Assembly: GCA_964424875.1 (NCBI GenBank)
Contig: CAYRKK010000002.1
Span: forward strand, 1-42,215
Length of the DNA: 42,215 bases
Origin: Candidatus Woesearchaeota archaeon
GTDB lineage: Archaea; Nanobdellota; Nanobdellia; Pacearchaeales; GW2011-AR1
Direction of reading: 5' to 3'
The notes beneath the pieces are model-generated. The model was not told the origin of the DNA, ran no database searches, and saw only the letters and a program-made list of their open reading frames with translations. How positions within the stretch are numbered: position 1 is the stretch's first letter; each line of letters begins with the position of its first letter. A program made the position numbers and the translations under genes. Shown one piece after another: positions 4,432 through 35,242 of this stretch.

Positions 4432-4435
4432 ATAA

Positions 4436-4661: not shown

Positions 4662-5675
4662 TTATCTCAGCTCTCCAGAAAAAACTTTTTTACTTAAGAG
4701 AATTCCTTTTTTTCCAATGGAAAATTCATGTATTTTTTTAGAATGGTTTGTCGCCCTCATTTTCAAAACTTCTAAATATCTTTTTCTTTCATTTTTATTT
4801 CTTAAAAAATAAAGAGCAATTATAGAATCTGATTCAAATTCTAAAATTTTAGATTTTAATTTATCTTCTTTAAGATTATCTCCTTCATAAGTTAAAAGAC
4901 TTGTGCAATCCCATCCTTTTAAAAGATTAAACAAAGATAATGTAGATTCTCTTTGTTTAAGTTCATCATTAAATAATAAAATAAAAGAAGTTAAACTATC
5001 TATAACAATCCTTGTTATTTTTTTTCTTAAAACAAGACTTTCAATAATTCCTCCTCCTTCGTCCAACATTATCTTAACTTTTTTTGGAGTATATTCAAGA
5101 AAATAAAATTTGTCTTGTTTTTCTAATTTTTCTAAATCCCATCCAAGCTTCTTAAGATTCTGATAAAAAGTTTCTTTTCCTTCTTCAAAAGATATAAACA
5201 TGCAGTTTTCTTTTTTTTCAATTCCTTCAATCAAAAACTGCACACCAAAAATACTTTTTCCAGACCCACTGCTTCCAATAATAAGATTTGTTGAATTTTT
5301 TTCAAAACCTTTTTCTGTTATAGAATCTAAATTTGAAATCCCTGTTGAAACTCTTTCTATATTTTTTAATTTAGGTTTGGTTTTAGAAAAAATACTCCCT
5401 GTTGAAACTTCTTTTAATCCTAGAATTCCTTTTTCTTTTTTCACTTCCAAATCCTCTTTAATTTTAATATTTTTTTTATTGTCTAGTGACTCAATACCTG
5501 GTTTAACTTTCTCAACACTTCCTCCCTCTTTTTCAACCTTATCCTTTTTAATTTTTCCAACCCTCTTCTTAACTTTCCCACTCCCTGATTTAGATTTTTT
5601 ATTTCTTAATTTAGTTTTCTTACTCTTAAATTTAGCACTAGACCTAATTTTCTCACCCTCTTTTTTCTTTTTCAT
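4662..5675 (-). CDS. KaiC/RecA-superfamily single-domain ATPase with ~100-aa lysine-rich N-terminal extension
   Basis: STGISNLDSITEKGF, then Walker A GSSGSGKS and the FISFEE motif typical of KaiC-like ATPases. The N-terminus is a K-rich low-complexity stretch. Confidence 0.8.
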   Translation of the reverse strand: MKKKKEGEKIRSSAKFKSKKTKLRNKKSKSGSGKVKKRVGKIKKDKVEKEGGSVEKVKPGIESLDNKKNIKIKEDLEVKKEKGILGLKEVSTGSIFSKTKPKLKNIERVSTGISNLDSITEKGFEKNSTNLIIGSSGSGKSIFGVQFLIEGIEKKENCMFISFEEGKETFYQNLKKLGWDLEKLEKQDKFYFLEYTPKKVKIMLDEGGGIIESLVLRKKITRIVIDSLTSFILLFNDELKQRESTLSLFNLLKGWDCTSLLTYEGDNLKEDKLKSKILEFESDSIIALYFLRNKNERKRYLEVLKMRATNHSKKIHEFSIGKKGILLSKKVFSGELR

Positions 5676-5703: not shown

Positions 5704-5753
5704 ATATTGCGTTAGTGTTTAATTTTGTGTTAGACCAGAATATATGTCCAGAG

Positions 5754-5922
5754 GTAAACCAAAATTAGTTTTTATAAAAATTCAAGAAAGCAAACTTAAC
5801 CTAAATCTCTTTATCCTCAATACTTTGTAATTACTCTTTAAGCTACTTATCTGCAGAGCGAGAAATGTTTATAAGATAATAATTAGTGAAACAATTTAGG
5901 TTAGCAAAGCTTCCCAAATTAT
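5754..5922 (+). repeat. intergenic repeat family A, copy A2
   Basis: Aligns with A1 and A3. The hairpin arms are aatttagg (5893..5900) and cccaaatt (5913..5920). Confidence 0.8.
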
Positions 5923-7526: not shown

Positions 7527-7994
7527 ATGGCATATACAGAAATAAAAAAAATAAATAAAAGAAAATATTATTACAGAGTTAGAAGTATAAGGAATGGTAA
7601 AAAATTCAAAAAACAAAGAATCTATCTAGGAAAAGAGCTATCTAAAAAAGAATTAGCTGTAAAAGAAAAAATAGCTGATAATAAACTTTCTGATAAAATA
7701 AAAAAAGAAAAATTAAAGATTGTTAATAAATTTATTCCAAAAATTAAGAAAATTTTAAAAAAGAAAAATATTAAAAAAGCAGGAATTTTTGGAAGTTATG
7801 CAAGAGGAGAACAGAGAAAAAACAGCGATATTGATATATTAATTAAACCTCCAAAAGGAATTGGGTTTGGATTTGCAGGCATTCAATTAGAACTTCAAGA
7901 TAAATTAAAGAAAAAAATTGATTTAGTTAGTTATAATGGACTAAGTCCTTATTTAAAAGAATCTATTTTAAAAGAAGAGGTAAGAATAATATGA
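7527..7994 (+). CDS. mntA: minimal nucleotidyltransferase (MNT) antitoxin-type protein with ~70-aa basic N-terminal extension
   Basis: GIFGSYARGEQRKNSDIDILI is the GS..D.D NTase motif. The stop overlaps the start of the DUF86 gene. Confidence 0.8.
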   Translation: MAYTEIKKINKRKYYYRVRSIRNGKKFKKQRIYLGKELSKKELAVKEKIADNKLSDKIKKEKLKIVNKFIPKIKKILKKKNIKKAGIFGSYARGEQRKNSDIDILIKPPKGIGFGFAGIQLELQDKLKKKIDLVSYNGLSPYLKESILKEEVRII

Positions 7995-8335
7995 ACAACA
8001 AGAATGATTTAGTTTTTATTGAACATATATTAGATAGTATTAATGCAATTGAAGATTTTTCTAAAAATATAAGTAAAGAAGAATTAATTTCTAATAGATT
8101 AAGAAAAAGTGCTATTGTAAGAGAAATAGAAATTATTGGAGAAGCAGTTAAAAATATTTCAGATAATCTTAAAAAAGAATATAAAGAAATTAAATGGAAA
8201 GACATTGCTGGAACAAGAGATAAAATGATTCATCATTATTTTGGTGTTGATTTAAATATTGTCTGGGATATAATTAAAAAAGATATTCCTGTTTTGAAAA
8301 AACAGATAAAAGAGATAAAGGAGAGGTTGAAATGA
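7991..8335 (+). CDS. hepT: HEPN-domain DUF86/HepT toxin-type protein
   Basis: RDKMIHHYFGVD carries the R-x4-H HEPN motif in a DUF86-like context. ATGA overlap with the MNT gene. Confidence 0.8.
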   Translation: MNNKNDLVFIEHILDSINAIEDFSKNISKEELISNRLRKSAIVREIEIIGEAVKNISDNLKKEYKEIKWKDIAGTRDKMIHHYFGVDLNIVWDIIKKDIPVLKKQIKEIKERLK

Positions 8336-8889: not shown

Positions 8890-9711
8890 ATGCGCTTCGC
8901 AATAGTCCATTCAAAACCAAACATAGCATCAACAAACATAGTAAAAACTTTAAAAAAAGATAATTTTCTTCCACAAGTTCCAATTTTAGATACAAAAAAA
9001 GATGTGATTTATGCAGATGAATTCACAATAAAAAAATATCCATTTTTAAAAATAACTGATATTTTAATTTATGCATCAACTCATAAATCAAAAAAAGGAG
9101 AACCTTCTTTATGTCTTCATGCACCAGGCAACTGGCGTTCAGCTGATTTAGGAGGAAGTTCAGGAAAAGTCTGTCCAACTTCAGCATTTATTTTAAAATA
9201 TTTATTCCAGCAATTAAATAAAAATGCAGAACAAGCAAAACAAGAAAACAAACTAGATCCAGCTTACAACATAACAATGGAGGTTACCCATCATGGCCCT
9301 TTAATTGAAGTCCCTTGTTGCTTTATTGAAATAGGAAGTTCAGAAAAACAATGGCAAGATAAACAAGCATCAGAAGTAATTGCAAAAACAATCATGAGTT
9401 TACAAAATTACAAAAAATCAGACTATGAAAACTGGATTCCATGTATTGGAATAGGAGGACCTCATTATGCACCAAACTTTAACAAAATCCAACTCAATAG
9501 CAATTATGCAATATCTCACATAATTCCAGAATACTCTCTTCCTTTAACAATTCCAATGCTTCAACAAGCAGAACAAAAAACAACAGAACAAATTAAATTA
9601 GCTTTAGTTGACTGGAAAGGTTGTGGTAATTCAGAACAAAGACAACAAACAATAAACTTATTAGATAAGTTTGGTTTTAAATATAAAAGAACAAGTAATA
9701 TTGAAAAATAA
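8890..9711 (+). CDS. dtdA: archaeal-type D-aminoacyl-tRNA deacylase (DTD2)
   Basis: HAPGNW, EVTHHGP, FIEIGSSEKQW, GIGGPHYAP and VDWKG blocks match archaeal DtdA throughout its length. Confidence 0.92.
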   Translation: MRFAIVHSKPNIASTNIVKTLKKDNFLPQVPILDTKKDVIYADEFTIKKYPFLKITDILIYASTHKSKKGEPSLCLHAPGNWRSADLGGSSGKVCPTSAFILKYLFQQLNKNAEQAKQENKLDPAYNITMEVTHHGPLIEVPCCFIEIGSSEKQWQDKQASEVIAKTIMSLQNYKKSDYENWIPCIGIGGPHYAPNFNKIQLNSNYAISHIIPEYSLPLTIPMLQQAEQKTTEQIKLALVDWKGCGNSEQRQQTINLLDKFGFKYKRTSNIEK

Positions 9712-9712
9712 A

Positions 9713-10807
9713 ATGTACAAAGTCTCAATCCTAAAATGCAATTCTTATAATCCAAATGAAATTCAAAAAACCCTAATAGAATCTTTAAAAAATATAAACT
9801 TTGATTTTTCAAAATATAAAAACAAAAAAATATTAATTAAACCAAATCTTTTATGTTCTGTTAAACCTGAAAAAGCAATTACAACCCATCCAATTATCAT
9901 AGAAGAACTTTGCAAAATTCTAAAACAATATACTTCTAAAATTTATATTGGAGATAGTTCAGGAGATAATACAACAAAAACTTTAGAAGTTTCAGGAATA
10001 AATAAACTCTCTAAACATGCAACCATCTTAAATTTTGATAAATTACAAACAAAAACATTTTTTATTAAAAACAAAAATATCCCTATTCCAAAGATTATCT
10101 TTGACTTTGATTTAATAATTAATATAGCTAAAATAAAAACACATTCTTTTACAGGAATTACTTTATGTGCAAAAAATTTATATGGATGCATTTCTGGAAA
10201 AACAAAATCCTATATTCACAAACTGCTTCCAAAAAACAAAGATTTGTCTGAGATTATTATTAAAATAACTAATTTAATCAAACCTCAATTAAATATTATT
10301 GATGCTGTTGAAGGAATTGAAGGAAATGGTCCTGGAACAGCAGGAACAAAAATTAAATCCAATCTCATAATTGTAAGTAAAAATCCTTTTGCAGCAGATA
10401 TTATCACTTCTGAAATAATGGGCTTTAATTCAAATGAAATTCTCACAAATAAATTTTCAAAAATAAAAAAACAAGATATTAAAACAATAGGAGATGCAAA
10501 AAATACAAGATTAAATTTTAAAAAACCCTTAACTTACCCCTTTCCTTTATTAGTATTATTAAATAAAATTTTTCCAAAACCCAAAATAGATTTTAACAAA
10601 GAGTTATGCCAAAAATGCAATATCTGCAAGGAAAAATGTCCAGTAAATGCAATTACTCTTCAACCCTATCCAATTTGCAATTATAAAAAATGTATAACCT
10701 GTATGTGTTGTATGGAAGTCTGCCCCTATAACACTATTTATTTAAAGGATTATTGGTTTAAAACATTATTAAAAAATATAAAAAACAAAATATTGAAAAA
10801 TGATTGA
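9713..10807 (+). CDS. DUF362 domain protein with C-terminal 2x[4Fe-4S] ferredoxin domain
   Basis: ILIKPNL and a DUF362-like core, then CQKCNICKEKCP and CITCMCCMEVCP cluster motifs. Start moved to the ATG at 9713, directly after the dtdA stop. Confidence 0.75.
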   Translation: MYKVSILKCNSYNPNEIQKTLIESLKNINFDFSKYKNKKILIKPNLLCSVKPEKAITTHPIIIEELCKILKQYTSKIYIGDSSGDNTTKTLEVSGINKLSKHATILNFDKLQTKTFFIKNKNIPIPKIIFDFDLIINIAKIKTHSFTGITLCAKNLYGCISGKTKSYIHKLLPKNKDLSEIIIKITNLIKPQLNIIDAVEGIEGNGPGTAGTKIKSNLIIVSKNPFAADIITSEIMGFNSNEILTNKFSKIKKQDIKTIGDAKNTRLNFKKPLTYPFPLLVLLNKIFPKPKIDFNKELCQKCNICKEKCPVNAITLQPYPICNYKKCITCMCCMEVCPYNTIYLKDYWFKTLLKNIKNKILKND

Positions 10808-11681
10808 ATGGTACCTCTTAGCATTAATCTCTGCATTTTTTTCAGCAGTAGCTGCAATATTTGAAAAAAAAGTTTTATTTAAAGAAAAAGCATTAGGATT
10901 CTCAACCCTATTTGCACTTTTCAACTTAATCTTAGCAATACCCTTTTTCTTTTTTATTAATTTTACACTAGTCACTTCATCAGGCCTTTTTGTTTTAATG
11001 AGTAAATCTCTTTTTGAAGCAGGAGCATTTCTTTGTGTAATGCAGGGAATTAAAAATCTTGAGATTAGTGAAGCTCTTCCTTTATTAGTCCTTACACCAG
11101 GCTTAGTTGCATTAGGAGCATTTATTTTTTTAGCAGAAACCCTGACTTTTCTTCAAATCACAGGAATTTTTTTATTAATGATTGGAACTTATACTTTACA
11201 AATAAAAACTAAAGAAAAACAAAAATTACTCGACCCTATCAAAGCTTTTTTTAAAACAAAAGCATATTACTACATTATAGCTGCTTTAATTTTATTCACA
11301 ACAACCTCAATACTTGACAAAGCTATTTTAAAAAACTTCAAACTCCCTTTAAATGCTTTTATGGGTTTTCAGCATCTTTTCCTGGCAATTATTTTCATTA
11401 TCTTTATAATCTCAACAAAAAAAACCCATCAACTAAAATCTGCAATTAAATTTTCTTGGATATTAATTCTAACAATCTCAATCTTCACAATAGTTTACAG
11501 ATACACCCAGCTTTCAGCAGTAAAAATTGCACCTGTTGCATTAGTTCTTTCATTAAAAAGAATTTCAGTTTTCTTCGCAGTTTTAATAGGTGGAAAACTT
11601 TTCCAAGAACATAATTTACTAATCAGAACTTTAGCAACAGCAATTATGATTGCAGGTGCTGTGTTAGTTATTGTTTTTTAG
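10800..11681 (+). CDS. EamA/DMT-family transporter
   Basis: About 10 predicted TM helices in two similar halves and 293 aa, a size and pattern typical of EamA proteins. Confidence 0.7.
   Translation: MIEWYLLALISAFFSAVAAIFEKKVLFKEKALGFSTLFALFNLILAIPFFFFINFTLVTSSGLFVLMSKSLFEAGAFLCVMQGIKNLEISEALPLLVLTPGLVALGAFIFLAETLTFLQITGIFLLMIGTYTLQIKTKEKQKLLDPIKAFFKTKAYYYIIAALILFTTTSILDKAILKNFKLPLNAFMGFQHLFLAIIFIIFIISTKKTHQLKSAIKFSWILILTISIFTIVYRYTQLSAVKIAPVALVLSLKRISVFFAVLIGGKLFQEHNLLIRTLATAIMIAGAVLVIVF
11651..11681 (+). repeat. direct repeat DR-L (live 3' end of the EamA gene), partner of 12744..12774
   Basis: tgcaggtgctgtgttagttattgttttttag versus tgcaggagttgggttggttattgttttttaa, 26/31 by eye. Both end in a stop codon in the same frame (AGAVLVIVF* / AGVGLVIVF*). 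Confidence 0.7.
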
Positions 11682-11684
11682 GGT

Positions 11685-11723
11685 TGTAGACAAAATTATA
11701 GAAAGATTTAAATATGTAGACAA
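11685..11723 (+). promoter_or_regulatory. two direct copies of TGTAGACAA upstream of the Fic gene, flanking a TTTAAATA box
   Basis: TGTAGACAA at 11685..11693 and 11715..11723, with tttaaata at 11707..11714 between them. The ATG is at 11744. Confidence 0.6.
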
Positions 11724-11743
11724 CGATTATATTTATATAGAAA

Positions 11744-12682
11744 ATGTATATTGAAAAAAGAAAAGTAAAAGGCAAAATAAAGTTTTGGCTATCACACTCT
11801 TTTAGAGAAGGTGGAAGAATACATAAGATAAGAAAATTATTAGGTTTAGATTTATCTGAAGAAATTTTGAAAGAGAGGATAGAAAAAGCTAAGCAATTGA
11901 TTTTAGAAGAGATTAATAAATATAAAATAATCAAAGACCCTCTTCATGATAAGATTTCTAAAGAAGAATTGGATTTTATTAAAAAATTGCAAGCAGAGGC
12001 TAATTTAAAAATTATTCATTTATCTGAAACTGAATGGAAGAAATTTTCAGAAATCTTTAGTTATAACACAAATGCTATTGAGGGAAGTGATCTTACAATG
12101 AAAGAAACCAAGACTGTGATAGAAAAAGGTGCTTGGCCAATAGAGAAATCAAAAGAAGATATTGCTGAAGCTCTTGGAGTAAATGAGGCAATTAAATACA
12201 TAAGAAAAATTAAAGAACATATTTCTTTAGATTTAATTAAAGAAATTCATCATATTGTTTTTAAAAATTCTAAGAATTTTGCAGGAGGGTTTAGAAAATT
12301 AGGGCAGGAAGTAGTTGTTAGAACTGGTTCTGGAATTATAGTTCATGAGGGTGCACCTTCATCAAGAGTTATTACTTTACTCAATGAATTAATTAAGTGG
12401 TACAATAAACATAAAACAGAATATCCTGCTATTCTTTTAGCAGCAGTTGTTCACAACCAATTTGAAAATATACATCCTTTTGCTGATGGAAATGGAAGAG
12501 TAGGAAGAATTCTTTTAAATAATATTTTACTTAAAAAAGGATTACCTCCAGTAAATATTGATTTAAAAAATCAAAGAGAGTATTATGAAACCTTGCAAGT
12601 CTATGAAAAACAAAAGAATATAAGGCCAACAATAGAACTTATTTTAAAAGAATATAAAGATTTAAAAAAGATTATTAAGTAA
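11744..12682 (+). CDS. Fic-family protein (class II, with N-terminal inhibitory motif) and a basic N-terminal extension
   Basis: Canonical HPFADGNGRVGR Fic motif. The upstream TNAIEG fits the (S/T)xxxE(G/N) inhibitory helix motif. Confidence 0.9.
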   Translation: MYIEKRKVKGKIKFWLSHSFREGGRIHKIRKLLGLDLSEEILKERIEKAKQLILEEINKYKIIKDPLHDKISKEELDFIKKLQAEANLKIIHLSETEWKKFSEIFSYNTNAIEGSDLTMKETKTVIEKGAWPIEKSKEDIAEALGVNEAIKYIRKIKEHISLDLIKEIHHIVFKNSKNFAGGFRKLGQEVVVRTGSGIIVHEGAPSSRVITLLNELIKWYNKHKTEYPAILLAAVVHNQFENIHPFADGNGRVGRILLNNILLKKGLPPVNIDLKNQREYYETLQVYEKQKNIRPTIELILKEYKDLKKIIK

Positions 12683-12689
12683 TTCTAAT

Positions 12690-12728
12690 TGTAGACAATT
12701 TTGTAGACAAAAATATATTTGTAGACAA
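12690..12728 (+). promoter_or_regulatory. three direct copies of TGTAGACAA immediately downstream of the Fic stop
   Basis: TGTAGACAA at 12690..12698, 12702..12710 and 12720..12728, in the same orientation as the two upstream copies. Confidence 0.6.
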
Positions 12729-12743
12729 AAGATTATTACAATC

Positions 12744-12774
12744 TGCAGGAGTTGGGTTGGTTATTGTTTTTTAA
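12744..12774 (+). pseudogene. direct repeat DR-R: relic copy of the EamA C-terminal codons plus stop
   Basis: See DR-L. It has no upstream ORF continuity with a transporter gene, so it reads as a displaced gene end. Confidence 0.6.
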
Positions 12775-12894
12775 ATGTTTGTTGATACCTCTGCCGAGCA
12801 AGAAACCATTATGGCATAATCATGGGCTTTTTATTTGATTATTAATTTAAAGAATATTAACAAGTATTTATATTTTTAAATGAATAGTAAAATC

Positions 12895-13317
12895 CTATTC
12901 TGGGATATTTTTTAATGTTTCGGAATAAGATACCCATTGATCAAACAAACAGAATAGTCCAAGGGAATCAAAAGAACTATCCATATTTTTGGTTGTATAC
13001 TTCAATGGTTCTGTTTTAGATAAATCCAGGAGTTTTCCAGATTGTCCTTCTAATTCCAACCAGGTTCCTTTTGACCCATTAAGAGTTATTTGTCTTACAA
13101 AAGCAGTATTCTCATGAAACATGTATGGTGAATTGCCAGAATATCTGAAACGCTTAATAATACCTGCGCCCAGCTCGTTCATTCTACATTGCATTTCAGT
13201 GGTTAAAATTACTTCCAACATTTCTCCAGCAAACTGTCTGCTAAGAAGAATTTCAAAATCATGATGTGGTTGATAAAGATGTGTTGGCTGCCAAATAATA
13301 TTATCATTAGGGTACAT
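12895..13317 (-). CDS. orphan hypothetical protein (140 aa) with non-K/I/N-biased composition
   Basis: Clean ATG-to-stop ORF flanked by >200-nt non-coding regions. No motif recognised. Confidence 0.5.
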   Translation of the reverse strand: MYPNDNIIWQPTHLYQPHHDFEILLSRQFAGEMLEVILTTEMQCRMNELGAGIIKRFRYSGNSPYMFHENTAFVRQITLNGSKGTWLELEGQSGKLLDLSKTEPLKYTTKNMDSSFDSLGLFCLFDQWVSYSETLKNIPE

Positions 13318-13550
13318 AACTAAGTAGAAAAATAAGTATTTAATAATATATTTGTGTTGAGAGGATTTATTTTACTTAACAATATATTCTCCCTAAAAAA
13401 TGAACTAAACAGTGGGATGCCCCTACAGAGCAAGAATAATATTTGTCCACTTATTAGGGGAATAAAATTATGAAGAATATTGTCTTTATCTTCAATCATC
13501 TCTTTTATTTTTATAAACTCTCAAACACACTTAACTATAAAAAATCTTTC

Positions 13551-16500
13551 CTAAAAACTGATGTCTCTTGAATCAGAATTCCCAGCATCATCTCTAATAA
13601 TTAATTGATAATTTGTATACTTCTCTCTTAACTTAAATTTCTTTTCACATTTTCCATATCTTAATCTACTGCATAATCTCTTTTCTTTAGTTTTTCCACG
13701 ATAATCATAACTCAATACAACTTTATCAAAATTCATTTCAGTTATAGACATATCAAAATAAACATAATCATCATATCTTCCAGTTCCCATTTCCCAAAAA
13801 TCATCAGGATTATTTAATACTGGAGAAGTCATATCAACATCAACTTCTCTTTTTTTTGATTCATCTTTATTTCCTGCAATATCTTCTAATTCAAACCAAT
13901 ATTCTATTTTCTGATTATCAAAGTCAGTTAGATTAACCCAAACCTTACAAGAATGTTTACCTCTAATTTCACTACAATCCTTTTCAATATCCAATTCCTG
14001 AGTCCTTATACTATTACCATAATATAATGTTAGATTTTCAGGATTATCTTCTTTAAATTCAACATAAAAGTTTCCATCTGAAAATCCTCTTGTTGGACTT
14101 GTCTTAGAAATTCTAGGGTCTTTTGAGTCTACTAAAAACGAAACACTTTCTTCATCTATAGTAACATCTTCAACAATCGCTTTAAAAGTAAGTTTATAGG
14201 TTCCATCTGAAAAAGATACTTTCCGATTGTATTCATCACAATTTCTACATAATCTTTTTTCTCTTAATCTTCCTCTAGAATCAAAATAAGTATAAACTAT
14301 TTCATCTACTTCTTCTGTTGTTTCAAGATTTAGTAATATTCTTCTGTTATCAAAGAGGTCTAAGATTGGGGAATTAATGATTAAATTTGTTTGATTATTT
14401 TCCTGAGTTCCACAATTTAAAATTGCCCGATATTCATAAATAGTTTGATTTTGAGAACCTTGGCAAGAATTTGAATCATATTGTGTTAAAAATCTTGATT
14501 GATTCATTAGATTATTAGATAAACATGAAATATTTTGCCAGTCACTCCATGATGTGTTAATAAGATTTGGAATGCATAAGTTTAATACCATTATTGAAGT
14601 TTGCATTGTGGCTATATCAAAGTGAAGATTTTGGGAATCTGGAACATTTGGAATTATTACTCTATATTCTCCAATAGGCAAAGTATAATAAGAATCAAGT
14701 TGGTTTGAATTTTTATTAAAATGATAATAATTCTTTGAATGAGGGTTTCTATTAAGATTGTATATTGCTTGCGTTGAAATCTTTTGTATCTGTAAATCTA
14801 AATTAGAACTAGGATTCCAAATATTTCCATTGTCAACAACTTTAATCTGAACAGAGCCTTCTGAATATTTATTGAAAAAAGACTTACTATATCCAGTTTC
14901 AGGATTATAATAAGAATAAGAATTAGAAGCTAAAACACCATCTGATTTATCATTTAAGAAATCTAAAATGATTTGAGAGTATTCATCTAATCGGGATACC
15001 TCTGTAGCATGATTATACCCATTTATTATAGATAAAGGGATGTTTTGATTTAATAAGCTTGAGCTTGATATTGAAACTAAACAATCATATTCTTCAGAAT
15101 CTGATTCTTTATGCCCAAAATTATCTGTAAGAGAACATAATATAGCTCCCTTATCAAATTCTATTACATCACCCCAATTTAGTCTTTCACTGTTTCCAAT
15201 AATTACATAGTTTTTAGTAGGCAAATTTTTATCTCCTAAATCAAATATCAAATCACTACCTAATGCCATCTGTTTATAAATTGGAGAATTAGAAGCTCCA
15301 GAATATCCAATTCTCCAGTCTTCAAAATTAGAATAATCATCAAAAAATAATGAACCTATTCCAGAGATAATCCAATCCTCACTGATCCCATTAGAAGCCC
15401 CACTTCCATGACTAGGTGATGCTAATAAAATTAAATGATTTACATCATTTTTATAATTATAACTAGAAATATTTTGAACATAACTTCTTGAAACTAATCC
15501 CCCCATACTATGAGCAATAACGTCAAACTTTTGTGAACTTCCATAATAATGATTTTTTAAATAAAGAGTTGAGTCACCTAAAAGTGCCCCACTCATAGGT
15601 ATGTCGTCCTCTCCAGAATAATAAAATTCCCAAGCATCATATCCTTTATTTTGAAATTGTTCTTGAGTTTCTTCTTCATTCCAATATCCTGATTCACCAT
15701 GTTTTCCATGAATAAAGATTATTGGTTTTTGATTTCTAATAACTTTGGGAACATCTAAAAAAGAGATCATATAATCTGCATAGTTATTATTTATACTTTC
15801 AGCACTTTGAACTGAGAACTTTTGTTGTTGATCTTTAATAAATTGTATTTTAGTTTCAATTTTATAAAGATTTGATGAATTTATTTCTTTTAATGGTTCA
15901 TCATTATATCCTAAGTACATTACAGGATTATTAGATGCTTTTTCCTTTAATTCAAATTCAAGAGTATTATTATATTCATTAAGATTAACCTGAACAAGTT
16001 TTGAATTTAATTTAGAATCTTCCGTATCAATTAAAGTTTCATTATTTATTTTAAGAAGAAGATAATCTGATACATTAAATAATATTTTATAATCTCCAGA
16101 ATTTTCTACTTGAAGATAACCTTTCCAATTTAATGAGATCATTTCTTGACTAGGCTCACTACTTGATGCTGATAATGTTTTTGAGGAAGAGAGTATTGTA
16201 GTTGAATCAAGCTCAGGAAAATAATTTCTTTTCCATGCAGGCTTATCTTGATGTATTCTTACTATTTGGTTTACCCAGTCTTCTGCATTATTAAAATTAT
16301 TTTTATTTGAAAAGTGATTTGTCCATTTCCCTATAATTTCATTGTTATCTATTGCATAAATCGCATAAATTTGGTAATCTACAAACAATGTTGGATTATT
16401 CCACCAAGCAATATATCTTTCTGGATTAAATTTGAAGTTCCCATTAGAATCTGTATAAACATCAAAGTAGTCTACTATGTCATTTTCTACTAAATCCACA

Positions 16501-17885
16501 TCTTCAACATACACCCTTAATTTTAAATTGCTGTAAACATTTTCTGAGAATGTTTGTCCTTGTTGAGATACTTGATAGACTTTTCCCTTGACAGCAGGAT
16601 TACAATTTTTCTGAGGGTCATTCCAATTTTCATACTCATAACAGCACCCCTCATTTTCTGTATCAATTATAGGGGTATTTCCATCACAAACTAGATTTGA
16701 AGTACATTGAGAACTACTATCACAGTCCCAACCATTATATCCAAAGAGTGTGTCTAAATTATTTGATGTAGCTGACTTTGAATTGACTGTTGCTTTAAAA
16801 CAATATTCTAAATTTCCAATTAAATCGTCGCCATTAGCAACAACCCAATTAATTAATGCGAAATTATTATTTATTGTAGAATAGAATGAACCAATAGAAT
16901 TTCCACTACATATAGAAGTAACCATATCATCTTCTATAATATCAAATTTAACAGAATTACCGTTTGAGATATCTTGAGTCTGAATGTTTAATGAGACTGT
17001 GTCTCCAGTATTTGCCGAGGTCGGACTCCAATAGATAGATGTTATTGAAGGATTGGTTATTTTTTGACAGCTATTTGTTCCAGTATTCCATTTTTCACCA
17101 ACATTACAACATCCACATTCCAACCCCATTAAACAAATATACCCGTCATAATCAACACAGTCAAAATTAGATGAACATTCAGAATCGTAATCACAGTCAT
17201 ATTCTCCATAATTACACCCTCCTTTTCTTTGTCCCTTATAATTACAATAATCACTATGCCCATTATAAAGAGAAGATCCATCATAGCAATAACAATCTCC
17301 CCAACCTGTGCACGATGCCCAACCTAGATAACATGAATCTACTAAATTATAACATTCATCCTTATCGCAATTATTAGTCCATCCTACTCCACACAAACTA
17401 CATAAAGAACTAGAAGGAGCAAGTACACTAAAACTACTAAATTTTTTAGATAAAATTTTAACATTACTAAAATAAGTAGAAGAATAATAATCAAAAATAG
17501 GATTTTCTAATAGATTAACAGAATTACTCTCTATATGAATCAGGTAGTTATTATTAGTCCATTCTATAAAATCTTTAAACATTAAATAATTTTTATCTTC
17601 AAAAGAGTATATATGCTCTAAATCAATGGGATCTGTTGTTTTGTTTATACTAGCTTTAAGTGCCTCCTCATCACTAAATTCTATAATCCAAACAATTATT
17701 TCTCCTTCTTCTGAAGAATAATAGATCTTAGAATAATTTAAAACTCCCTCAAAAATTTCTGGGAAATCAGGATTATCAATTTGAATTACTTCATAAATAT
17801 CAATTTTACTAGTTTCACCATTGACACCCCCAACCATAAAAATCATTAAAAATATGTATGCCCCTAATACCAACAACTTTTTCAT
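13551..17885 (-). CDS. giant secreted/surface protein: signal peptide, Cys-rich module, PA14-like region, lipase-like alpha/beta-hydrolase domain, C-terminal Ig-like repeats
   Basis: N-terminal MKKLLVLGAYIFLMIFMVGGVNG. Dense Cys cluster at about aa 160-275. NWKGYLQVENSGDYKILFNVSDYLLLKINN is PA14-like. IFIHGKHG ... DVIAHSMGGLVSRSY is a GxSxG nucleophile elbow as in class 2 / PGAP1-like lipases (near nt 15490..15530). Repeated ...KEKRLC... modules at the C-terminus. Confidence 0.8.
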   Translation of the reverse strand: MKKLLVLGAYIFLMIFMVGGVNGETSKIDIYEVIQIDNPDFPEIFEGVLNYSKIYYSSEEGEIIVWIIEFSDEEALKASINKTTDPIDLEHIYSFEDKNYLMFKDFIEWTNNNYLIHIESNSVNLLENPIFDYYSSTYFSNVKILSKKFSSFSVLAPSSSLCSLCGVGWTNNCDKDECYNLVDSCYLGWASCTGWGDCYCYDGSSLYNGHSDYCNYKGQRKGGCNYGEYDCDYDSECSSNFDCVDYDGYICLMGLECGCCNVGEKWNTGTNSCQKITNPSITSIYWSPTSANTGDTVSLNIQTQDISNGNSVKFDIIEDDMVTSICSGNSIGSFYSTINNNFALINWVVANGDDLIGNLEYCFKATVNSKSATSNNLDTLFGYNGWDCDSSSQCTSNLVCDGNTPIIDTENEGCCYEYENWNDPQKNCNPAVKGKVYQVSQQGQTFSENVYSNLKLRVYVEDVDLVENDIVDYFDVYTDSNGNFKFNPERYIAWWNNPTLFVDYQIYAIYAIDNNEIIGKWTNHFSNKNNFNNAEDWVNQIVRIHQDKPAWKRNYFPELDSTTILSSSKTLSASSSEPSQEMISLNWKGYLQVENSGDYKILFNVSDYLLLKINNETLIDTEDSKLNSKLVQVNLNEYNNTLEFELKEKASNNPVMYLGYNDEPLKEINSSNLYKIETKIQFIKDQQQKFSVQSAESINNNYADYMISFLDVPKVIRNQKPIIFIHGKHGESGYWNEEETQEQFQNKGYDAWEFYYSGEDDIPMSGALLGDSTLYLKNHYYGSSQKFDVIAHSMGGLVSRSYVQNISSYNYKNDVNHLILLASPSHGSGASNGISEDWIISGIGSLFFDDYSNFEDWRIGYSGASNSPIYKQMALGSDLIFDLGDKNLPTKNYVIIGNSERLNWGDVIEFDKGAILCSLTDNFGHKESDSEEYDCLVSISSSSLLNQNIPLSIINGYNHATEVSRLDEYSQIILDFLNDKSDGVLASNSYSYYNPETGYSKSFFNKYSEGSVQIKVVDNGNIWNPSSNLDLQIQKISTQAIYNLNRNPHSKNYYHFNKNSNQLDSYYTLPIGEYRVIIPNVPDSQNLHFDIATMQTSIMVLNLCIPNLINTSWSDWQNISCLSNNLMNQSRFLTQYDSNSCQGSQNQTIYEYRAILNCGTQENNQTNLIINSPILDLFDNRRILLNLETTEEVDEIVYTYFDSRGRLREKRLCRNCDEYNRKVSFSDGTYKLTFKAIVEDVTIDEESVSFLVDSKDPRISKTSPTRGFSDGNFYVEFKEDNPENLTLYYGNSIRTQELDIEKDCSEIRGKHSCKVWVNLTDFDNQKIEYWFELEDIAGNKDESKKREVDVDMTSPVLNNPDDFWEMGTGRYDDYVYFDMSITEMNFDKVVLSYDYRGKTKEKRLCSRLRYGKCEKKFKLREKYTNYQLIIRDDAGNSDSRDISF

Positions 17886-18031
17886 ATAAATACCACAAAA
17901 TCAATATATATTAAACTATCGACAATAAAGTCATCAGCTAATCGTGGTAAAAAAGAATCAATCCTCAATAACCCTACCCAACTTTTCTTTATGTTCTTCA
18001 ATATCTTTCTTTGCATCTGCAAAGATTTCAT
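17882..18031 (-). CDS. possible 49-aa ORF translationally coupled (ATGA overlap) to the giant protein gene
   Basis: My own translation is MKSLQMQRKILKNIKKSWVGLLRIDSFLPRLADDFIVDSLIYIDFVVFI*. A GAGGT lies upstream. The stop overlaps the giant gene ATG. It is below the ORF-track length cutoff. Confidence 0.3.
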   Translation of the reverse strand: MKSLQMQRKILKNIKKSWVGLLRIDSFLPRLADDFIVDSLIYIDFVVFI

Positions 18032-18052
18032 CTTGTTCTTCCCTACCTCTTT

Positions 18053-18139
18053 TTATAATATTTCTCTCCCAACAACCTCAACACTTCTCTTCTTTTTATC
18101 AAACCAAACTCGCCCACCAAACTTCAACTCCTTTGCTTC
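18053..18139 (-). pseudogene. relic duplicate of the C-terminal ~28 codons of the HydA-like gene, lying just downstream of MFS copy 1
   Basis: Reads EAKELKFGGRVWFDKKKRSVEVVGREIL* with no start codon. Nucleotide blocks 18068..18092 and 18117..18130 match 19372..19396 (24/25) and 19400..19413 (14/14). Confidence 0.7.
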
Positions 18140-18149
18140 ATACTTTCAC

Positions 18150-19331
18150 TTATTGTTTTTTAGCCCTCAAAAACAAAAACAAAACAGGAATAATCAACAT
18201 AACCAAGGCACCAATTCTAAATCCAATATTAATATTATAAATATCTGATGAAAATCCAACTAAAGGAACAAAAATAGCAACCCCTAAACCTCTCATCAGA
18301 TTATAACCAGAAATAACAGTAGCACGAGTACTTGAATCTGTTTCTAAATGTAACAAATGTTCTGTTGCAGGTCTTCCAATTCCATAAAAAAATTGTTTAA
18401 TTAATAAAAAAATAATTGCTATTAAAGGAAAAACAAATGTTGCAAATAAATAAAACAAACTATAACCAAACCCTCCCATTATAATTGTTTTTTTATCTCC
18501 TAATTTTTCAGAAACTTCATGAGAAAAATAATGTCCTAAAGAAGATACTGCAAAACTTATTGCAAATATATAACCAAAATAAATTATTGGAATTTCATAA
18601 AACTGAAAAAATATTGGTTTTAAATAATGTAAAGAATCTCCTATTCCAATTAAAATAAGAGCACTGAACAAGATTATTAAAACCTGAGAATTTTTAATAA
18701 TAACTCCTAAAGATTTAAACATATGTTTAAAAACATTTTTATGAGTTTCTTTTTCATATTTTGGTTCTACTAACTGAAATGAAAGAAAAGTTGCAATAGA
18801 CATTGGAATAAGACTCATAATAACAGGTAATGATAAAGAAATAGATGCTAAATACCCTCCAACAACAGCACCAATACTAGCACCAATTGGCCATAATGCA
18901 TATTTAGTTCCAATAATTTTTTTAAAATATTTTTCCTTGCCTTCTTGCTTTAATGTATCATAAATTAAAGCACTATCTGCCCCACTAAACATACTTCTAC
19001 CAAATGCATTAATAATAGCATATAAAACAAACATTATCATTATATTCCCAATAGCTAAAAAAACAAAACTTAAAAGAATCACAAATCCAGAAATAATTAT
19101 TGATTTTTTTCTTCCAAGCAAATCAGCAATAGCACCAGTTGGATATTCAAATAAAACAATAGCAATAGATTCAATAGAAATTATTAATGCCACATTTGTC
19201 AGTGTAAATAAACTCTCCTCAATATATAAAGCAAAAATAGGCAGGAAAAATAACATACCTCCAAAAATAGACATAATATAAAAATAAAAAATATTCTTAG
19301 ATTTAATTCCATAAGTATTAAAGAGTTTCAT
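18150..19331 (-). CDS. MFS transporter, copy 1
   Basis: About 12 TM helices and a GAIADLLGRKKS loop motif. Start moved to MKLFNTYG (ATG at 19331), 1 nt after the upstream gene stop. Paralog of 25300..26487. Confidence 0.85.
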   Translation of the reverse strand: MKLFNTYGIKSKNIFYFYIMSIFGGMLFFLPIFALYIEESLFTLTNVALIISIESIAIVLFEYPTGAIADLLGRKKSIIISGFVILLSFVFLAIGNIMIMFVLYAIINAFGRSMFSGADSALIYDTLKQEGKEKYFKKIIGTKYALWPIGASIGAVVGGYLASISLSLPVIMSLIPMSIATFLSFQLVEPKYEKETHKNVFKHMFKSLGVIIKNSQVLIILFSALILIGIGDSLHYLKPIFFQFYEIPIIYFGYIFAISFAVSSLGHYFSHEVSEKLGDKKTIIMGGFGYSLFYLFATFVFPLIAIIFLLIKQFFYGIGRPATEHLLHLETDSSTRATVISGYNLMRGLGVAIFVPLVGFSSDIYNINIGFRIGALVMLIIPVLFLFLRAKKQ

Positions 19332-19332
19332 T

Positions 19333-20229
19333 TTAAACTCTTCCAATCTCTTTATTTTTTTTCTCACAACTCCCAACAATCTCAACACTTCTCTTCCCCC
19401 CAAACTTCAACTCTCCTGCTTTTTCAATTAAACCTTTCCTCTCCTCAGGAATATCTTCATCTTTTGATTTTTCTAAATAATCTAAAACTTTTTTCTTTTT
19501 AACAGATATGGGAATTTTAGAAGTATGAGGTCCTCCAATACAACCTCCAACACAAAACAAAACATCTAAAAATTTTATTTTAGGGTTTGGATTATCTAGA
19601 AACTTCATAATTTTTTTTATCCCATCAATAATCAAAACCTCTTCTTTTTTTATAACACCTTTTAAATGCGCTGTTTTTGCCAAACCCCCTGACAAAGGAA
19701 ATATTTTAGTATAATCATTATAAAACTTATTAAATAAAACATCTCCCTTTATTTTCTTAATTTTCTTTTTCTTAAAAATTTCTCTCAACTGCTCATAATC
19801 AATAACATAATCAATATATTCAGAATTTTCAGATTCAATTTTTTTAAAATCACAAGGAGAAATAAAAACAGTTTTATGTTGAGGATATTGCTTTTTAGAA
19901 ATCTTAGCAGTTGCAATCATTGGACTATCAACTTTAATTAAATTCTTTTTATACTGAGGATATTTATTGCAAATTGTTTCAACAATTCCAGGACAAGGCG
20001 ATGCAATCACCAACTCCTTTGAATTCTTCAATTTCTTATGATAATCCCTGTTAATCATCTTAGCACCAAAAGTTAATTCAATAGCTTTATCAAATCCCAA
20101 TGCCCGAAGTCTAAATATTATTGACGGATACTCAAACTCAGCAACAAAACTCGGAGCAACAAGAGCAATCATTTTAACACCCTGTTCTAATTCAGAAACG
20201 ATTTTATTAATGTTGTTTTTTTCAAACAT
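19333..20229 (-). CDS. short [FeFe]-hydrogenase H-domain-like protein (Fe_hyd_lg_C-like) without N-terminal ferredoxin domains
   Basis: ASPCPGIV aligns to L1 TSCCPGW, ISPCDFKKIE to L2 MPCxxKxxE, and VLFCVGGCIGGP to L3 MxCxxGCxxGG. Confidence 0.65.
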   Translation of the reverse strand: MFEKNNINKIVSELEQGVKMIALVAPSFVAEFEYPSIIFRLRALGFDKAIELTFGAKMINRDYHKKLKNSKELVIASPCPGIVETICNKYPQYKKNLIKVDSPMIATAKISKKQYPQHKTVFISPCDFKKIESENSEYIDYVIDYEQLREIFKKKKIKKIKGDVLFNKFYNDYTKIFPLSGGLAKTAHLKGVIKKEEVLIIDGIKKIMKFLDNPNPKIKFLDVLFCVGGCIGGPHTSKIPISVKKKKVLDYLEKSKDEDIPEERKGLIEKAGELKFGGKRSVEIVGSCEKKNKEIGRV

Positions 20230-35208: not shown

Positions 35209-35242
35209 TTTAATACCTTAAAATTTATTTATTTAAATTTTA

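What the first reader, a model, noticed from the sequence alone, without database searches (positions are those of the whole stretch)
11651..12774. Fic gene module is inserted at the 3' end of the EamA transporter gene and flanked by a 31-nt imperfect direct repeat
The last codons and stop of the EamA gene are tgcaggtgctgtgttagttattgttttttag (11651..11681). They recur after the Fic gene as tgcaggagttgggttggttattgttttttaa (12744..12774), 26/31 by eye. Both keep the same frame and end in a stop (AGAVLVIVF* versus AGVGLVIVF*). The 1.06 kb between them holds only the Fic ORF and its TGTAGACAA repeats. This looks like a cargo gene inserted into a gene end, with the terminus regenerated.
Basis: seen in the sequence. 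Interest (0 to 1): 0.7.

Follow-up and report, generated by a model that had tools for sequence, protein, structure and literature searches.

The report
Roaming Fic gene cassette in EamA end
A 1-kb, single-gene Fic cassette with its own promoter was inserted into the last 31 bases of a transporter gene in a tiny DPANN archaeon, and those 31 bases were duplicated so the transporter stayed intact; the same cassette sits at a different place in nearly every related genome, often with the same kind of flanking duplication, and no known insertion machinery explains this.

Summary
Window 11651-11681 and 12744-12774 match at 26/31; simulated windows never exceeded 23/31. Both copies read as ten in-frame codons ending in a stop.

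- Relatives have empty sites. In L086 the EamA stop lies 15 nt from a convergent Fe-hydrogenase-like gene, and L083 also lacks Fic.
- The closest relative, L001, has the same EamA-Fic-repeat structure. Comparing the four copies shows they differed at one base when the two lineages split.
- Copy 1 encodes the consensus EamA C-terminus. Copy 2 is a decaying relic.

Segment 11682-12743 is a self-contained cassette. It holds a TATA box bracketed by two TGTAGACAA sites, a class II Fic gene with an extra N-terminal beta-sheet/helix domain, and three more sites downstream.

Relatives of this cassette occur in at least 567 Nanoarchaeota species genomes. None of 80 fetched loci lies next to EamA. In 15 of 74 the cassette is flanked by duplicated host sequence of 21-72 nt, usually a gene or tRNA 3' end, against 1 of 342 controls.

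No recombinase lies in the cassette, and none was found among the window ORFs I scanned. The insertion mechanism is unresolved. Other genes in the window carry similar flanking repeats, so the mechanism is probably not encoded by Fic.

The parts
10800..11681 (+). EamA/DMT-family transporter gene (293 aa), intact
   Evidence: Pfam PF00892, E 3.6e-18. 520 homologs, mostly 289-293 aa, from Pace-/Woesearchaeota.
11651..11681 (+). Direct repeat copy 1: the working last 10 codons (AGAVLVIVF*) of EamA
   Evidence: It matches the ortholog C-terminal consensus.
11682..12743 (+). Inserted single-gene Fic cassette (promoter, ORF, flanking motif sites, about 15 nt of right-end spacer)
   Evidence: Absent between EamA and the convergent gene in L086 and L083. 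Among close cassette relatives in other contexts, homology starts at the first TGTAGACAA and ends just after the last one.
11685..11723 (+). Promoter block: TGTAGACAA (11685-11693), TATA box TTTAAATA (11707-11714), TGTAGACAA (11715-11723). ATG lies 37 nt after the TATA start.
   Evidence: The motif occurs only here in the window. The same arrangement (distal site, 12-14 nt, TTTAAATA, proximal site) is conserved in about 80 loci. That the sites are operators is inferred.
11744..12682 (+). Fic gene (312 aa). Residues 1-60 form a three-stranded beta sheet plus a helix. Residues about 95-311 are a class II Fic domain with HPFADGNGRVGR and the inhibitory motif TNAIEG.
   Evidence: Pfam PF02661. Invariant motifs in 34 homologs. 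AlphaFold2 pLDDT 88.9. Foldseek top hit FICD 6i7g, E 5.6e-13.
12690..12728 (+). Three further TGTAGACAA sites (12690, 12702, 12720) downstream of the Fic stop
   Evidence: Conserved in the close cassette relatives L001, L003-L006, L089, L106. Absent in many more distant relatives.
12744..12774 (+). Direct repeat copy 2: decaying relic of the EamA 3' end (AGVGLVIVF*), no gene attached
   Evidence: 26/31 to copy 1. Translation. 'VG' is found in none of 115 orthologs. The L001 counterpart is 27/31 to its own copy 1.
12777..19360 (.). Context: a window-specific block of about 6.6 kb between copy 2 and the Fe_hyd_lg_C gene (140-aa ORF, 1444-aa PA14/lipase-like protein, MFS gene). L001 has only about 31 nt here.
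   Evidence: blastn window vs L001: 10788-12776 = L001 7989-9977, and the next block 19393-20230 = L001 10009-10846. Pfam results.

Best explanation
Window 11682-12743 is a self-contained one-gene cassette. It landed inside the last 31 nt of the EamA gene in the common ancestor of this organism and of L001.

The insertion duplicated the target's own last ten codons, stop included. The left copy still completes EamA. The right copy was left stranded beyond the cassette and has drifted since, with 5 differences in the window and 4 in L001.

The cassette has its own archaeal promoter, a TATA box bracketed by two TGTAGACAA sites, and three more sites after the stop. It encodes a class II (self-inhibited) Fic AMP-transferase. 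Its extra N-terminal beta-sheet/helix domain is the most likely binder of those sites, which would give autoregulation.

Across Nanoarchaeota the cassette is conserved and found at one locus in each of the 80 assemblies fetched. It sits at a different locus in nearly every species, typically at the 3' end of a protein or tRNA gene.

Shown: the insertion, the near-perfect original duplication, the functional versus relic status of the copies, and the family-wide pattern.

Inferred: the duplication arose as a long, variable-length target-site duplication (repair of widely staggered breaks) made by machinery not encoded in the cassette. In these very compact genomes, only insertions whose duplication restores the hit gene's end survive. 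Motif binding by the N-terminal domain and the AMPylation or defence function of Fic are also inferred.
For: - The repeat is real and non-random.
- Empty sites exist in L086 and L083.
- L001 shares EamA, Fic and copy 2 at 91% nucleotide identity, and homology to the window ends 2 nt after copy 2.
- Four-copy comparison: only position 7 separates both copy 1s from both copy 2s, so the copies matched at 30/31 at the split.
- Copy 1 fits the ortholog consensus and copy 2 does not.
- At least 567 GTDB species genomes encode a relative. None of the 80 fetched loci has EamA nearby.
- Contexts are almost all different: 62 distinct upstream contexts among 70 flanks, and 66 distinct downstream contexts among 73.
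- Homologs at 83-85% identity sit in three further unrelated contexts.
- Host-sequence direct repeats flank the cassette in 20 of 74 loci above the 99th percentile of permuted pairs.
- At score 18 or more the count is 15 of 74, against 1 of 342 same-geometry controls. The Fisher p of 8.7e-9 is for the 12.3 threshold (20 of 74 against 13 of 342).
- In most top cases one repeat copy is the 3' end of a flanking gene, often ending exactly at its stop, or a tRNA 3' end.
- The cassette holds no other supported ORF. No integrase or transposase family was hit among the 20 window ORFs scanned or among the Pfam entries recorded for the genes called in L001.
- The promoter-plus-site architecture is conserved in about 80 loci.
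- Other genes in the same window (MFS 18150-19403, the 140-aa ORF, the KaiC-like ORF, a 128-aa ORF) also have flanking repeats. This points to a general mechanism rather than one encoded by Fic.
Against: - No characterized prokaryotic system is known to me that makes target duplications of 12-72 nt with variable length, so the mechanistic step has no precedent to lean on.
- 54 of 74 cassettes show no detectable flanking repeat. This could mean decay or a different route.
- In several loci the repeat ends exactly at a stop codon. Selection can explain that, but so can an element-borne gene end.
- The empty-site relatives are only 77-78% identical at the nucleotide level, so exact junctions cannot be read.
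- Position 14 co-varies within genomes (T,T in the window; A,A in L001). That needs gene conversion or parallel mutation.
- The DNA-binding role of the N-terminal domain is unproven. The best fold match, the arm-type binding domain of HPI integrase (3jtz), has E 0.32.
- The A/T variant at motif position 6 does not track the N-terminal sequence type.
Confidence: 0.8

Rival explanations
1. Site-specific integration by a tyrosine integrase supplied in trans (a miniature, cis-mobilizable integrative element). On this view the 31-nt repeats are attL and attR cores, and the TGTAGACAA arrays act as arm-type sites bound by the Fic N-terminal domain as an accessory factor.
For: - Targets are gene and tRNA 3' ends, as for classical integrative elements.
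- There are two sites inside the left end and three inside the right end.
- The N-terminal domain has a three-stranded sheet plus a helix, and its top PDB match is an integrase arm-binding domain.
Against: - That fold match is not significant (E 0.32).
- The flanking repeats have unrelated sequences and lengths of 12-72 nt in different loci. One integrase and one att site cannot explain them.
- Many cassettes with flanking repeats have no downstream sites at all.
- No integrase was found among the window ORFs scanned or the Pfam entries recorded for L001.
- There are no close relatives on viral contigs.
Confidence: 0.12
2. Campbell-type single crossover. A circular DNA carrying the Fic cassette plus a copy of the EamA 3' end recombined homologously with the chromosomal EamA end, which leaves the homologous segment on both sides.
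For: - It gives exactly the layout gene end, cassette, gene end.
- It explains why repeats often stop at the stop codon and have variable length.
- The unique spacer sequences between repeats and conserved cassette ends suggest imprecise capture.
Against: - The circle must already contain the target's end, so this explains spread of an existing arrangement and not its origin.
- It predicts shared one-sided context between donor and recipient. Yet contexts are almost all different, and EamA-Fic is seen only in the window and L001.
- The copies matched at 30/31 at the lineage split, so no diverged donor was involved.
Confidence: 0.12
3. The Fic protein mobilizes its own cassette. It would bind the terminal TGTAGACA arrays through its N-terminal domain and either catalyse or recruit strand transfer, making this a new kind of one-gene mobile element.
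For: - The motif is found only around this gene and travels with it in about 80 genomes.
- Flanking duplications are about ten times more frequent for Fic than for other ORFs in the same loci.
- Fic is the only gene in the unit.
Against: - Fic chemistry is nucleotidyl transfer to protein hydroxyls, and no DNA strand-transfer activity is known (my own knowledge).
- Other genes in this window have the same kind of flanking repeats without the motif.
- The cassette is found once in each of the 80 assemblies fetched.
- The motif positions fit a promoter operator.
Confidence: 0.05
4. There was no insertion. The repeat is a chance or low-complexity match, an assembly artefact, or a local duplication next to an ancestrally resident Fic gene.
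For: The 3' half of the repeat is T-rich (GTTATTGTTTTTTA), and the genome has about 27% G+C.
Against: - 26/31 exceeds all 200 composition-matched simulations, whose maximum was 23.
- The 5' half (TGCAGG...) also matches.
- The structure is identical in an independent assembly and present in L001.
- Relatives have EamA without Fic.
- Fic lies elsewhere in 80 other genomes.
Confidence: 0.02

Closest known systems
Integrative elements that insert into a gene's 3' end and restore it (for example phage 21 and e14 in E. coli icd; tRNA-targeting integrative plasmids and viruses of archaea). Recalled from my own knowledge.
   Same: The insert sits in the last codons of a gene. It is flanked by imperfect direct repeats of that gene's end, and the gene stays intact. 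The wider family prefers protein-gene and tRNA 3' ends.
   Different: The unit is only 1.06 kb and holds one gene and no integrase. The repeat sequence and length differ at every locus. The duplicated end came from the target itself (30/31 at the lineage split) and was not a diverged element-borne copy.
FICD/HYPE-type class II Fic AMP-transferases (PDB 6i7g, 4u04, 5jj6) and BT_2513 (3cuc)
   Same: It has the Fic fold and the canonical HPFxDGNGRxxR motif. It has the in-cis inhibitory helix motif TxxxEG upstream of the core.
   Different: Identity is only 23-26%. There are no TPR or transmembrane parts. Instead there is a 60-aa N-terminal beta-sheet/helix domain with no Pfam match and no significant structural match. 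The substrate is unknown.
SoFic and PDC-S04 single-gene Fic candidates in the PADLOC defence database; NCBIfam 'mobile mystery protein B'
   Same: The Fic core matches these models (PADLOC E 2.5e-35 and 6.1e-34; TIGR02613 E 5.6e-12). It is a single gene with accessory-gene behaviour.
   Different: It scores far below the curated NCBIfam cut-offs (49.7 vs 550 bits for SoFic; 45.9 vs 124.4 for mob_myst_B). The flanking domains differ. It is conserved in hundreds of Nanoarchaeota species, unlike sporadic defence genes.
Long target duplications made by Cas1-type integrases (CRISPR repeat duplication, casposon TSDs) and the variable TSDs of target-primed insertion. Recalled from my own knowledge.
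   Same: Tens of nucleotides of target are duplicated on both sides of the inserted DNA.
   Different: Those duplications have a fixed, ruler-set length, or involve reverse transcription. Here lengths range from 12 to 72 nt. No Cas1 or RT was found among the window ORFs scanned.

Membership tests
Fic/DOC (Fido) family, PF02661 | Profile match above the curated threshold | tested here: met
   71.1 bits against a gathering score of 24, residues 160-262.
Fic/DOC (Fido) family, PF02661 | Catalytic motif HxFx(D/E)GNGRxxR | tested here: met
   HPFADGNGRVGR at residues 244-255. H244, F246, D248, G249, N250, G251, R252 and R255 are invariant in 34 homologs.
Fic/DOC (Fido) family, PF02661 | Fic fold | tested here: met
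   AlphaFold2 pLDDT 88.9. Foldseek gives FICD 6i7g at E 5.6e-13 and 3cuc at rmsd 3.1.
Class II Fic (inhibitory helix in cis, N-terminal to the core) | (S/T)xxxE(G/N) motif upstream of the Fic core in the same chain | tested here: met
   T109-N-A-I-E113-G114, invariant in 34 homologs. Activity and auto-inhibition are not testable here.
Integrase-driven integrative element at a gene 3' end | Flanking direct repeats, a restored target gene and an empty site in relatives | tested here: met
Integrase-driven integrative element at a gene 3' end | A tyrosine or serine recombinase gene inside the element | tested here: not met
   The only supported ORF between the repeats is Fic. No recombinase family was hit among the 20 window ORFs scanned or the Pfam entries recorded for L001.
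Integrase-driven integrative element at a gene 3' end | The same att core at all insertion sites of the element family | tested here: not met
   Flanking repeats in 20 loci are unrelated in sequence and 12-72 nt long.
IS element, transposon or MITE | A transposase gene, or terminal inverted repeats with a fixed-length target-site duplication | tested here: not met
   There is no transposase. The five motif copies are all on the + strand. Duplication length varies.
IS element, transposon or MITE | Several copies per genome | tested here: not met
   One cassette in the 42 kb window. The 80 best GTDB loci come from 80 different assemblies. Whole-genome copy number was not checked.
Toxin-antitoxin module (Doc/Phd; class I FicT/FicA) | An adjacent small antitoxin gene that supplies the inhibitory helix | tested here: not met
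   There is no small co-directional ORF between the repeats. The inhibitory motif is in cis.
SoFic-type single-gene defence | Match to the SoFic equivalog at its curated cut-off | tested here: not met
   NCBIfam NF046030 gives 49.7 bits against a cut-off of 550. The PADLOC SoFic and PDC-S04 models match the core only, residues 93-310. A defence function is not testable here.
Integron gene cassette | An attC recombination site and a nearby IntI integrase | tested here: not met
   The flanking repeats are copies of the host gene's end, not a shared attC. No integrase was found among the window ORFs scanned. No dedicated attC model was run.

The most novel reading that the evidence does not exclude
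Nanoarchaeota (DPANN) may have an undescribed way of relocating gene-sized DNA. It would duplicate about 12-170 nt of the target, so genes can drop into the ends of other genes in ultra-compact genomes without breaking them. The conserved Fic cassette, which occupies one locus in each assembly sampled and carries its own operator-like sites, is by far its most frequent passenger. In the boldest version it is a self-mobilizing one-gene element in which the Fic protein's N-terminal domain binds the cassette ends.
Probability: 0.3. Interest if true: 0.85.

Novelty: new variant of a known kind. Interest (0 to 1): 0.62.

Why it matters
DPANN archaea have tiny, gene-dense genomes, and how they gain or move genes is poorly understood.

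Here a gene conserved in hundreds of species, at one locus in each assembly sampled, behaves like mobile cargo. It keeps its promoter and flanking sites but changes neighbours in almost every species. It often lands in the 3' end of another gene or tRNA with a long duplication that repairs the damage.

That signature has three features: there is no recombinase in cis, the duplication length varies, and the target sequence is not conserved. It fits no characterized insertion system that I know of. Other genes in the same window show it too.

If the mechanism is new, it would explain how such compact genomes stay fluid. It would also give a sequence signature (a gene-end relic beyond an inserted gene) for finding recent gene gains in metagenome-assembled genomes.

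The cassette also offers a testable case of a Fic AMP-transferase fused to a putative DNA-binding domain, with its own candidate operator sites.

Tried and rejected
- **Repeat extension.** Extending the repeat upstream of TGCAGG with gapped alignment found no convincing similarity. The repeat is 31 nt.
- **Rfam.** Window 11400-13700 gave only a sub-threshold snoRNA-like hit (E 0.92). Rfam on 14 loci found only four tRNAs. Several tRNA-like repeat ends (L030, L055, L036, L079) were not confirmed as tRNA genes.
- **Viral contigs.** One distant hit at 35% identity, so there is no sign of a viral vehicle.
- **Metagenome scan.** The single-protein query returned only 15 loci and no new close context beyond those already seen.
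- **N-terminal domain.** There is no Pfam match (best HTH_30, E 0.17). The Foldseek top hit is an integrase arm-binding domain, but at E 0.32. This is a lead, not evidence.
- **Motif covariation.** I looked for covariation between the motif variant (TGTAGACA vs TGTAGTCA) and N-terminal residues. The same protein type occurs with both variants, so this gives no support for specific recognition.
- **MFS paralog.** I considered the 98.5% identical MFS paralog as a fresh copy-paste event that could reveal exact junctions. The identity covers almost exactly the coding sequence, so gene conversion between paralogs is equally likely.
- **Literature.** Searches for Fic in DPANN, Nanoarchaeota, Pacearchaeota or Woesearchaeota found nothing relevant.
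Full report
**1. The observation**

Window 11651-11681 (TGCAGGTGCTGTGTTAGTTATTGTTTTTTAG) and 12744-12774 (TGCAGGAGTTGGGTTGGTTATTGTTTTTTAA) match at 26 of 31 positions. No other position on either strand of the 42 kb reaches even 22/31. In 200 first-order Markov sequences with the window's composition, the best match to the EamA terminus was 19-23/31. The repeat is therefore not a by-product of the T-run or of the 27% G+C content.

Both copies translate in the same register to ten codons with a stop: AGAVLVIVF* and AGVGLVIVF*. Copy 1 is the end of a 293-aa EamA/DMT transporter gene at 10800-11681 (Pfam PF00892).

The 1.06 kb between the copies holds one supported ORF, 11744-12682, a Fic protein (PF02661, 71 bits). 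It also holds five TGTAGACAA copies, all on the + strand, two before the ORF and three after it. These are the only copies in the window (expected 0.31).

An independent assembly from another sample (L111) has copy 1, the cassette and copy 2 identical to the window. The structure is not an assembly artefact.

**2. Was it inserted?**

The organism is a DPANN archaeon of the Pacearchaeota/Woesearchaeota group, judged from the source names of EamA and Fic homologs.

The closest relative, L001 (EamA 91% identical), has the same order: EamA, Fic, second repeat copy. Nucleotide homology with the window runs from 10788 to 12776 and stops 2 nt after copy 2. In L001 the sequence after copy 2 is the 3' end of a convergent Fe_hyd_lg_C gene.

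In two more distant relatives there is no Fic. In L086 (EamA 81%) the EamA stop is followed after 15 nt by the stop of that same convergent Fe_hyd_lg_C gene. In L083, EamA is followed by a response regulator and then the same gene set. EamA facing Fe_hyd is therefore the older arrangement, and Fic came in between.

Comparing the four repeat copies (window and L001, copy 1 and copy 2) gives the age and nature of the duplication. Only position 7 separates both copy 1s from both copy 2s. All other differences are private to one copy, except position 14, which is T,T in the window and A,A in L001. At the split of the two lineages the copies therefore matched at 30/31. The duplicated end came from the target itself.

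Among 120 EamA orthologs, 115 end in G-x-x-[LMF]-[IVM]-[IV] followed by two residues in 108 of them. The x-x pair is AV or AI in 90. Copy 1 (G-AV-LVI-VF) fits. The VG of copy 2 occurs in none. Copy 1 is the working terminus and copy 2 is a relic under no protein-level constraint.

The repeat does not extend further upstream.

**3. What the inserted unit is**

The Fic protein has the canonical catalytic motif HPFADGNGRVGR (residues 244-255). It also has the in-cis inhibitory motif T109-NAI-E113-G114. Both are invariant in 34 homologs, which makes it a class II Fic enzyme.

The AlphaFold2 model (pLDDT 88.9) matches FICD/HYPE and BT_2513 structures (E 5.6e-13). Profile-to-PDB search agrees.

Residues 1-60 are extra. 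They form three beta strands (2-8, 11-22, 25-35) and a long helix (39-59). The domain is modelled with confidence both in the full protein and alone. It has no Pfam match. Its best structural match is the arm-type DNA-binding domain of the HPI integrase (3jtz), but at E 0.32. That is only a lead.

The PADLOC models SoFic and PDC-S04 match the Fic core (E about 1e-34). NCBIfam cut-offs are not reached.

**4. The promoter and the TGTAGACAA sites**

Upstream of the ORF the layout is:
- TGTAGACAA at 11685-11693
- 13 nt of spacer
- TTTAAATA at 11707-11714
- TGTAGACAA at 11715-11723
- ATG, 37 nt after the TATA start

The same arrangement is conserved in about 80 loci from other genomes: a distal site, 12-14 nt, a TATA box, a proximal site directly after it, and ATG about 29-30 nt from the TATA start. 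The site there reads TGTAG(A/T)CA(A/C)(C). It is often paired with an inverted copy (GGTGACTACA ... TGTAGTCACC).

A site wedged between the TATA box and the start point is the classical position of an archaeal repressor operator (established knowledge). The motif occurs nowhere else in the window and always travels with this gene. The extra domain of the Fic protein is therefore the most economical candidate binder. This is inference. The A/T variant at motif position 6 does not track the N-terminal sequence type.

**5. The family-wide picture**

A profile of the protein finds relatives in at least 567 stretches of GTDB species-representative genomes. The 80 best come from 80 different assemblies, all Nanoarchaeota-type MAGs. 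Lengths are 304-312 aa and identities 61-84%.

None of the 80 has EamA within 4 kb. Their neighbourhoods are almost all different: 62 distinct upstream contexts among 70 flanks and 66 distinct downstream contexts among 73. Homologs at 83-85% identity sit next to DnaK/DnaJ, next to ribosomal protein S27e, or next to a LAGLIDADG gene and SAM synthetase. By contrast, EamA keeps DtdA and Fe_hyd neighbours at comparable divergence.

Among close cassette relatives in different contexts, homology begins at the first TGTAGACAA and ends just after the last one. The moving unit is the promoter, the gene and its flanking sites.

**6. Flanking host repeats are a general property of the cassette**

I aligned the 150 nt left of the cassette with the 250 nt right of it, motif blocks excluded.
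- 20 of 74 loci scored above the 99th percentile of permuted pairs. The null maximum was 15.5, and observed scores reached 55.
- Repeat lengths were 12-72 nt and most repeats were imperfect.
- Pseudo-cassettes of the same geometry placed elsewhere in the same loci gave 1 of 342 at score 18 or more, against 15 of 74 for the real cassettes.
- At the 12.3 threshold the counts were 13 of 342 against 20 of 74, Fisher p 8.7e-9.

In most high-scoring loci one repeat copy is the 3' end of a flanking gene, and several end exactly at its stop codon.
- Upstream co-directional gene: window, L001, L058, L046, L031, L022.
- Downstream convergent gene: L043, L035, L057, L014, L054.

tRNA genes abut the cassette with their 3' ends in at least ten loci, and in L074 the repeat includes the tRNA 3' end. 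The repeats share no sequence between loci.

The cassette lands in the terminal part of a gene, and a duplication of that part keeps the gene whole.

**7. How the insertion happened**

The cassette contains no recombinase. None was hit among the 20 window ORFs scanned or among the Pfam entries recorded for the genes called in the 17 kb of L001. There are no close relatives on viral contigs.

The repeat sequences and lengths differ at every site. This argues against a single site-specific integrase, and fixed-length transposase duplications do not fit either. Unique, non-conserved spacers lie between the repeats and the conserved cassette ends: 3 nt on the left and about 15 nt on the right in the window, and up to 50 nt elsewhere. 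This suggests imprecise ends.

The same window holds other genes with flanking repeats.
- The MFS gene 18150-19403 lies between a relic (18066-18140) and the working 3' end (19370-19420) of the Fe_hyd gene.
- The 140-aa ORF 12895-13317 lies between two copies of a tRNA-3'-end-like 17-mer. Its homolog in L109 lies between a tRNA-like 3' end (by eye) and a 20-nt near-copy of it.
- A KaiC-like ORF and a 128-aa ORF next to tRNA-Ser are framed by repeats of 174 and 75 nt.

In an ORF-anchored scan, about 2% of non-Fic ORFs show such repeats, against about 20% of Fic cassettes.

My best reading is that a host-level, sequence-independent process makes long, variable target duplications, for example by repair of widely staggered breaks. 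In genomes this compact, only insertions whose duplication restores the hit gene's end survive. Fic is an unusually frequent passenger.

I cannot exclude Campbell-type integration of a circle that carried the gene end, or an integrase acting in trans. A role of the Fic protein in its own movement is possible but unsupported.

**8. Comparison with what is known**

Functionally the event resembles integrative elements that insert into a gene's 3' end and restore it. Examples from my own knowledge are phage 21 and e14 in icd, and tRNA-targeting archaeal integrative elements. The defining integrase and the constant att core were tested and are absent.

It is not an IS element or a MITE. There is no transposase, there are no terminal inverted repeats in this clade, the duplication length varies, and there is one copy per assembly in the sample. 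It is not a toxin-antitoxin pair, because no partner gene exists and the inhibitory helix is in cis. It is not an integron cassette.

The protein is a bona fide class II Fic enzyme whose closest solved relatives are FICD-type AMP-transferases. Its N-terminal domain has no described counterpart that I could find.

Two literature searches found nothing on Fic genes in these archaea.

**9. Verdict**

The local event is an ordinary-looking insertion with a regenerated gene end. Three things raise its interest:
- The inserted unit is a widely conserved Fic cassette, found at one locus per assembly in the 80 fetched, with its own operator-like sites.
- It relocates in nearly every species.
- It carries a duplication signature that no known machinery explains, and other genes in the same window share that signature.

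I rate it a new variant of a known kind, with interest 0.62.

Noticed in passing
window 12788-12804 and 13420-13436 (flanking ORF 12895-13317, minus strand): A second direct-repeat pair, CCTCTGCCGAGCAAGAA / CCCCTACAGAGCAAGAA (14/17, expected 0.03), frames a 140-aa ORF of unknown function. Read on the minus strand it looks like a tRNA 3' end (T-stem CTTGC plus acceptor strand TCGGCAG), yet no tRNA gene lies there. The same 12-mer CTGCCGAGCAAG abuts Fic cassettes in L011 and in L088/L107/L108, and in L107 a variant lies on both sides of Fic. A homolog of the 140-aa ORF in L109 is framed by a tRNA-like 3' end (by eye) and a near-copy of it.
   Followed up: partly
window 18066-18140 and 19370-19420 (flanking MFS gene 18150-19403, minus strand): The MFS gene lies between a relic and the working copy of the 3' end of the Fe_hyd_lg_C gene (27-nt core at 26/27, about 55 nt alignable with a 21-nt indel). 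This is the same 'gene end duplicated around an inserted gene' pattern as for Fic.
   Followed up: partly
window 18153-19334 vs 25309-26490: Two MFS transporter genes are 98.5% identical over 1182 nt, almost exactly the coding sequence, while their flanks are unrelated. This is either a recent copy or gene conversion between paralogs.
   Followed up: partly
window 12777-~19360: About 6.6 kb is present in the window but replaced by about 31 nt in the close relative L001. It starts 2 nt after repeat copy 2 and carries the 140-aa ORF, a 1444-aa protein with PA14 and PGAP1/lipase-like domains, and the MFS gene. The junction between the convergent EamA and Fe_hyd genes looks like a repeated landing site.
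   Followed up: partly
window 4431-4604 and 5749-5922 (flanking ORF 4662-5675, minus strand): A 174-nt direct repeat (71% identical) frames a KaiC-like ATPase gene. L001 holds only a 364-nt fragment of this gene.
   Followed up: no
window 35310-35384 and 35908-35982; tRNA-Ser 35242-35324 (minus strand): A 75-nt direct repeat (72%) frames a 128-aa ORF (35357-35743). The first copy overlaps the 5' end of tRNA-Ser(GCT).
   Followed up: no
window 35792-35856, 36710-36741, 40622-40686: A repeat of up to 65 nt occurs in three copies (81-91% identical). It contains TTTTGCTCGGCAATACCC, which resembles the tRNA-3'-end-like motif seen next to the cassettes.
   Followed up: no
window 9714-10787 vs L001 7525-7988: The DUF362/4Fe-4S gene (9671-10807), between the D-aminoacyl-tRNA deacylase gene and EamA, is replaced in L001 by an unrelated 115-aa ORF. 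Both flanking genes are conserved at about 91-92% nucleotide identity.
   Followed up: no
window 11664 and 12757 (repeat position 14); L001 8865 and 9958: Position 14 of the repeat is T in both window copies and A in both L001 copies. This means either gene conversion between the two 31-nt copies 1.09 kb apart or parallel mutation. Separately, the 3' 15 nt (GGTTATTGTTTTTTA, with a T6 run) is identical in all four copies, so the relic may now act as the Fic transcription terminator.
   Followed up: partly
L112, L113, L114 (other assemblies of the same lineage), position 1 = window ~11697: Three of four other assemblies that carry the identical Fic gene break at the same base, 12 nt into the left end of the cassette. 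This could reflect strain variation at the cassette boundary, or only repeat-induced assembly breaks.
   Followed up: no
window 7527-8335 and 20977-21558: There is a nucleotidyltransferase/HepT-like toxin-antitoxin pair (7527-7994 and 7991-8335, annotated through L001) and a second Pol-beta-type nucleotidyltransferase ORF (20977-21558).
   Followed up: no
L094 upstream 1-120 and downstream ~1170-1390; L036: In L094 the Fic cassette is framed by a diverged repeat of at least 43 nt, with further matching stretches by eye out to a second shared block, GGTGCGGGCGTA. The same GGTGCGGGCG end frames the cassette in L036. Rfam did not identify it as a known RNA.
   Followed up: partly
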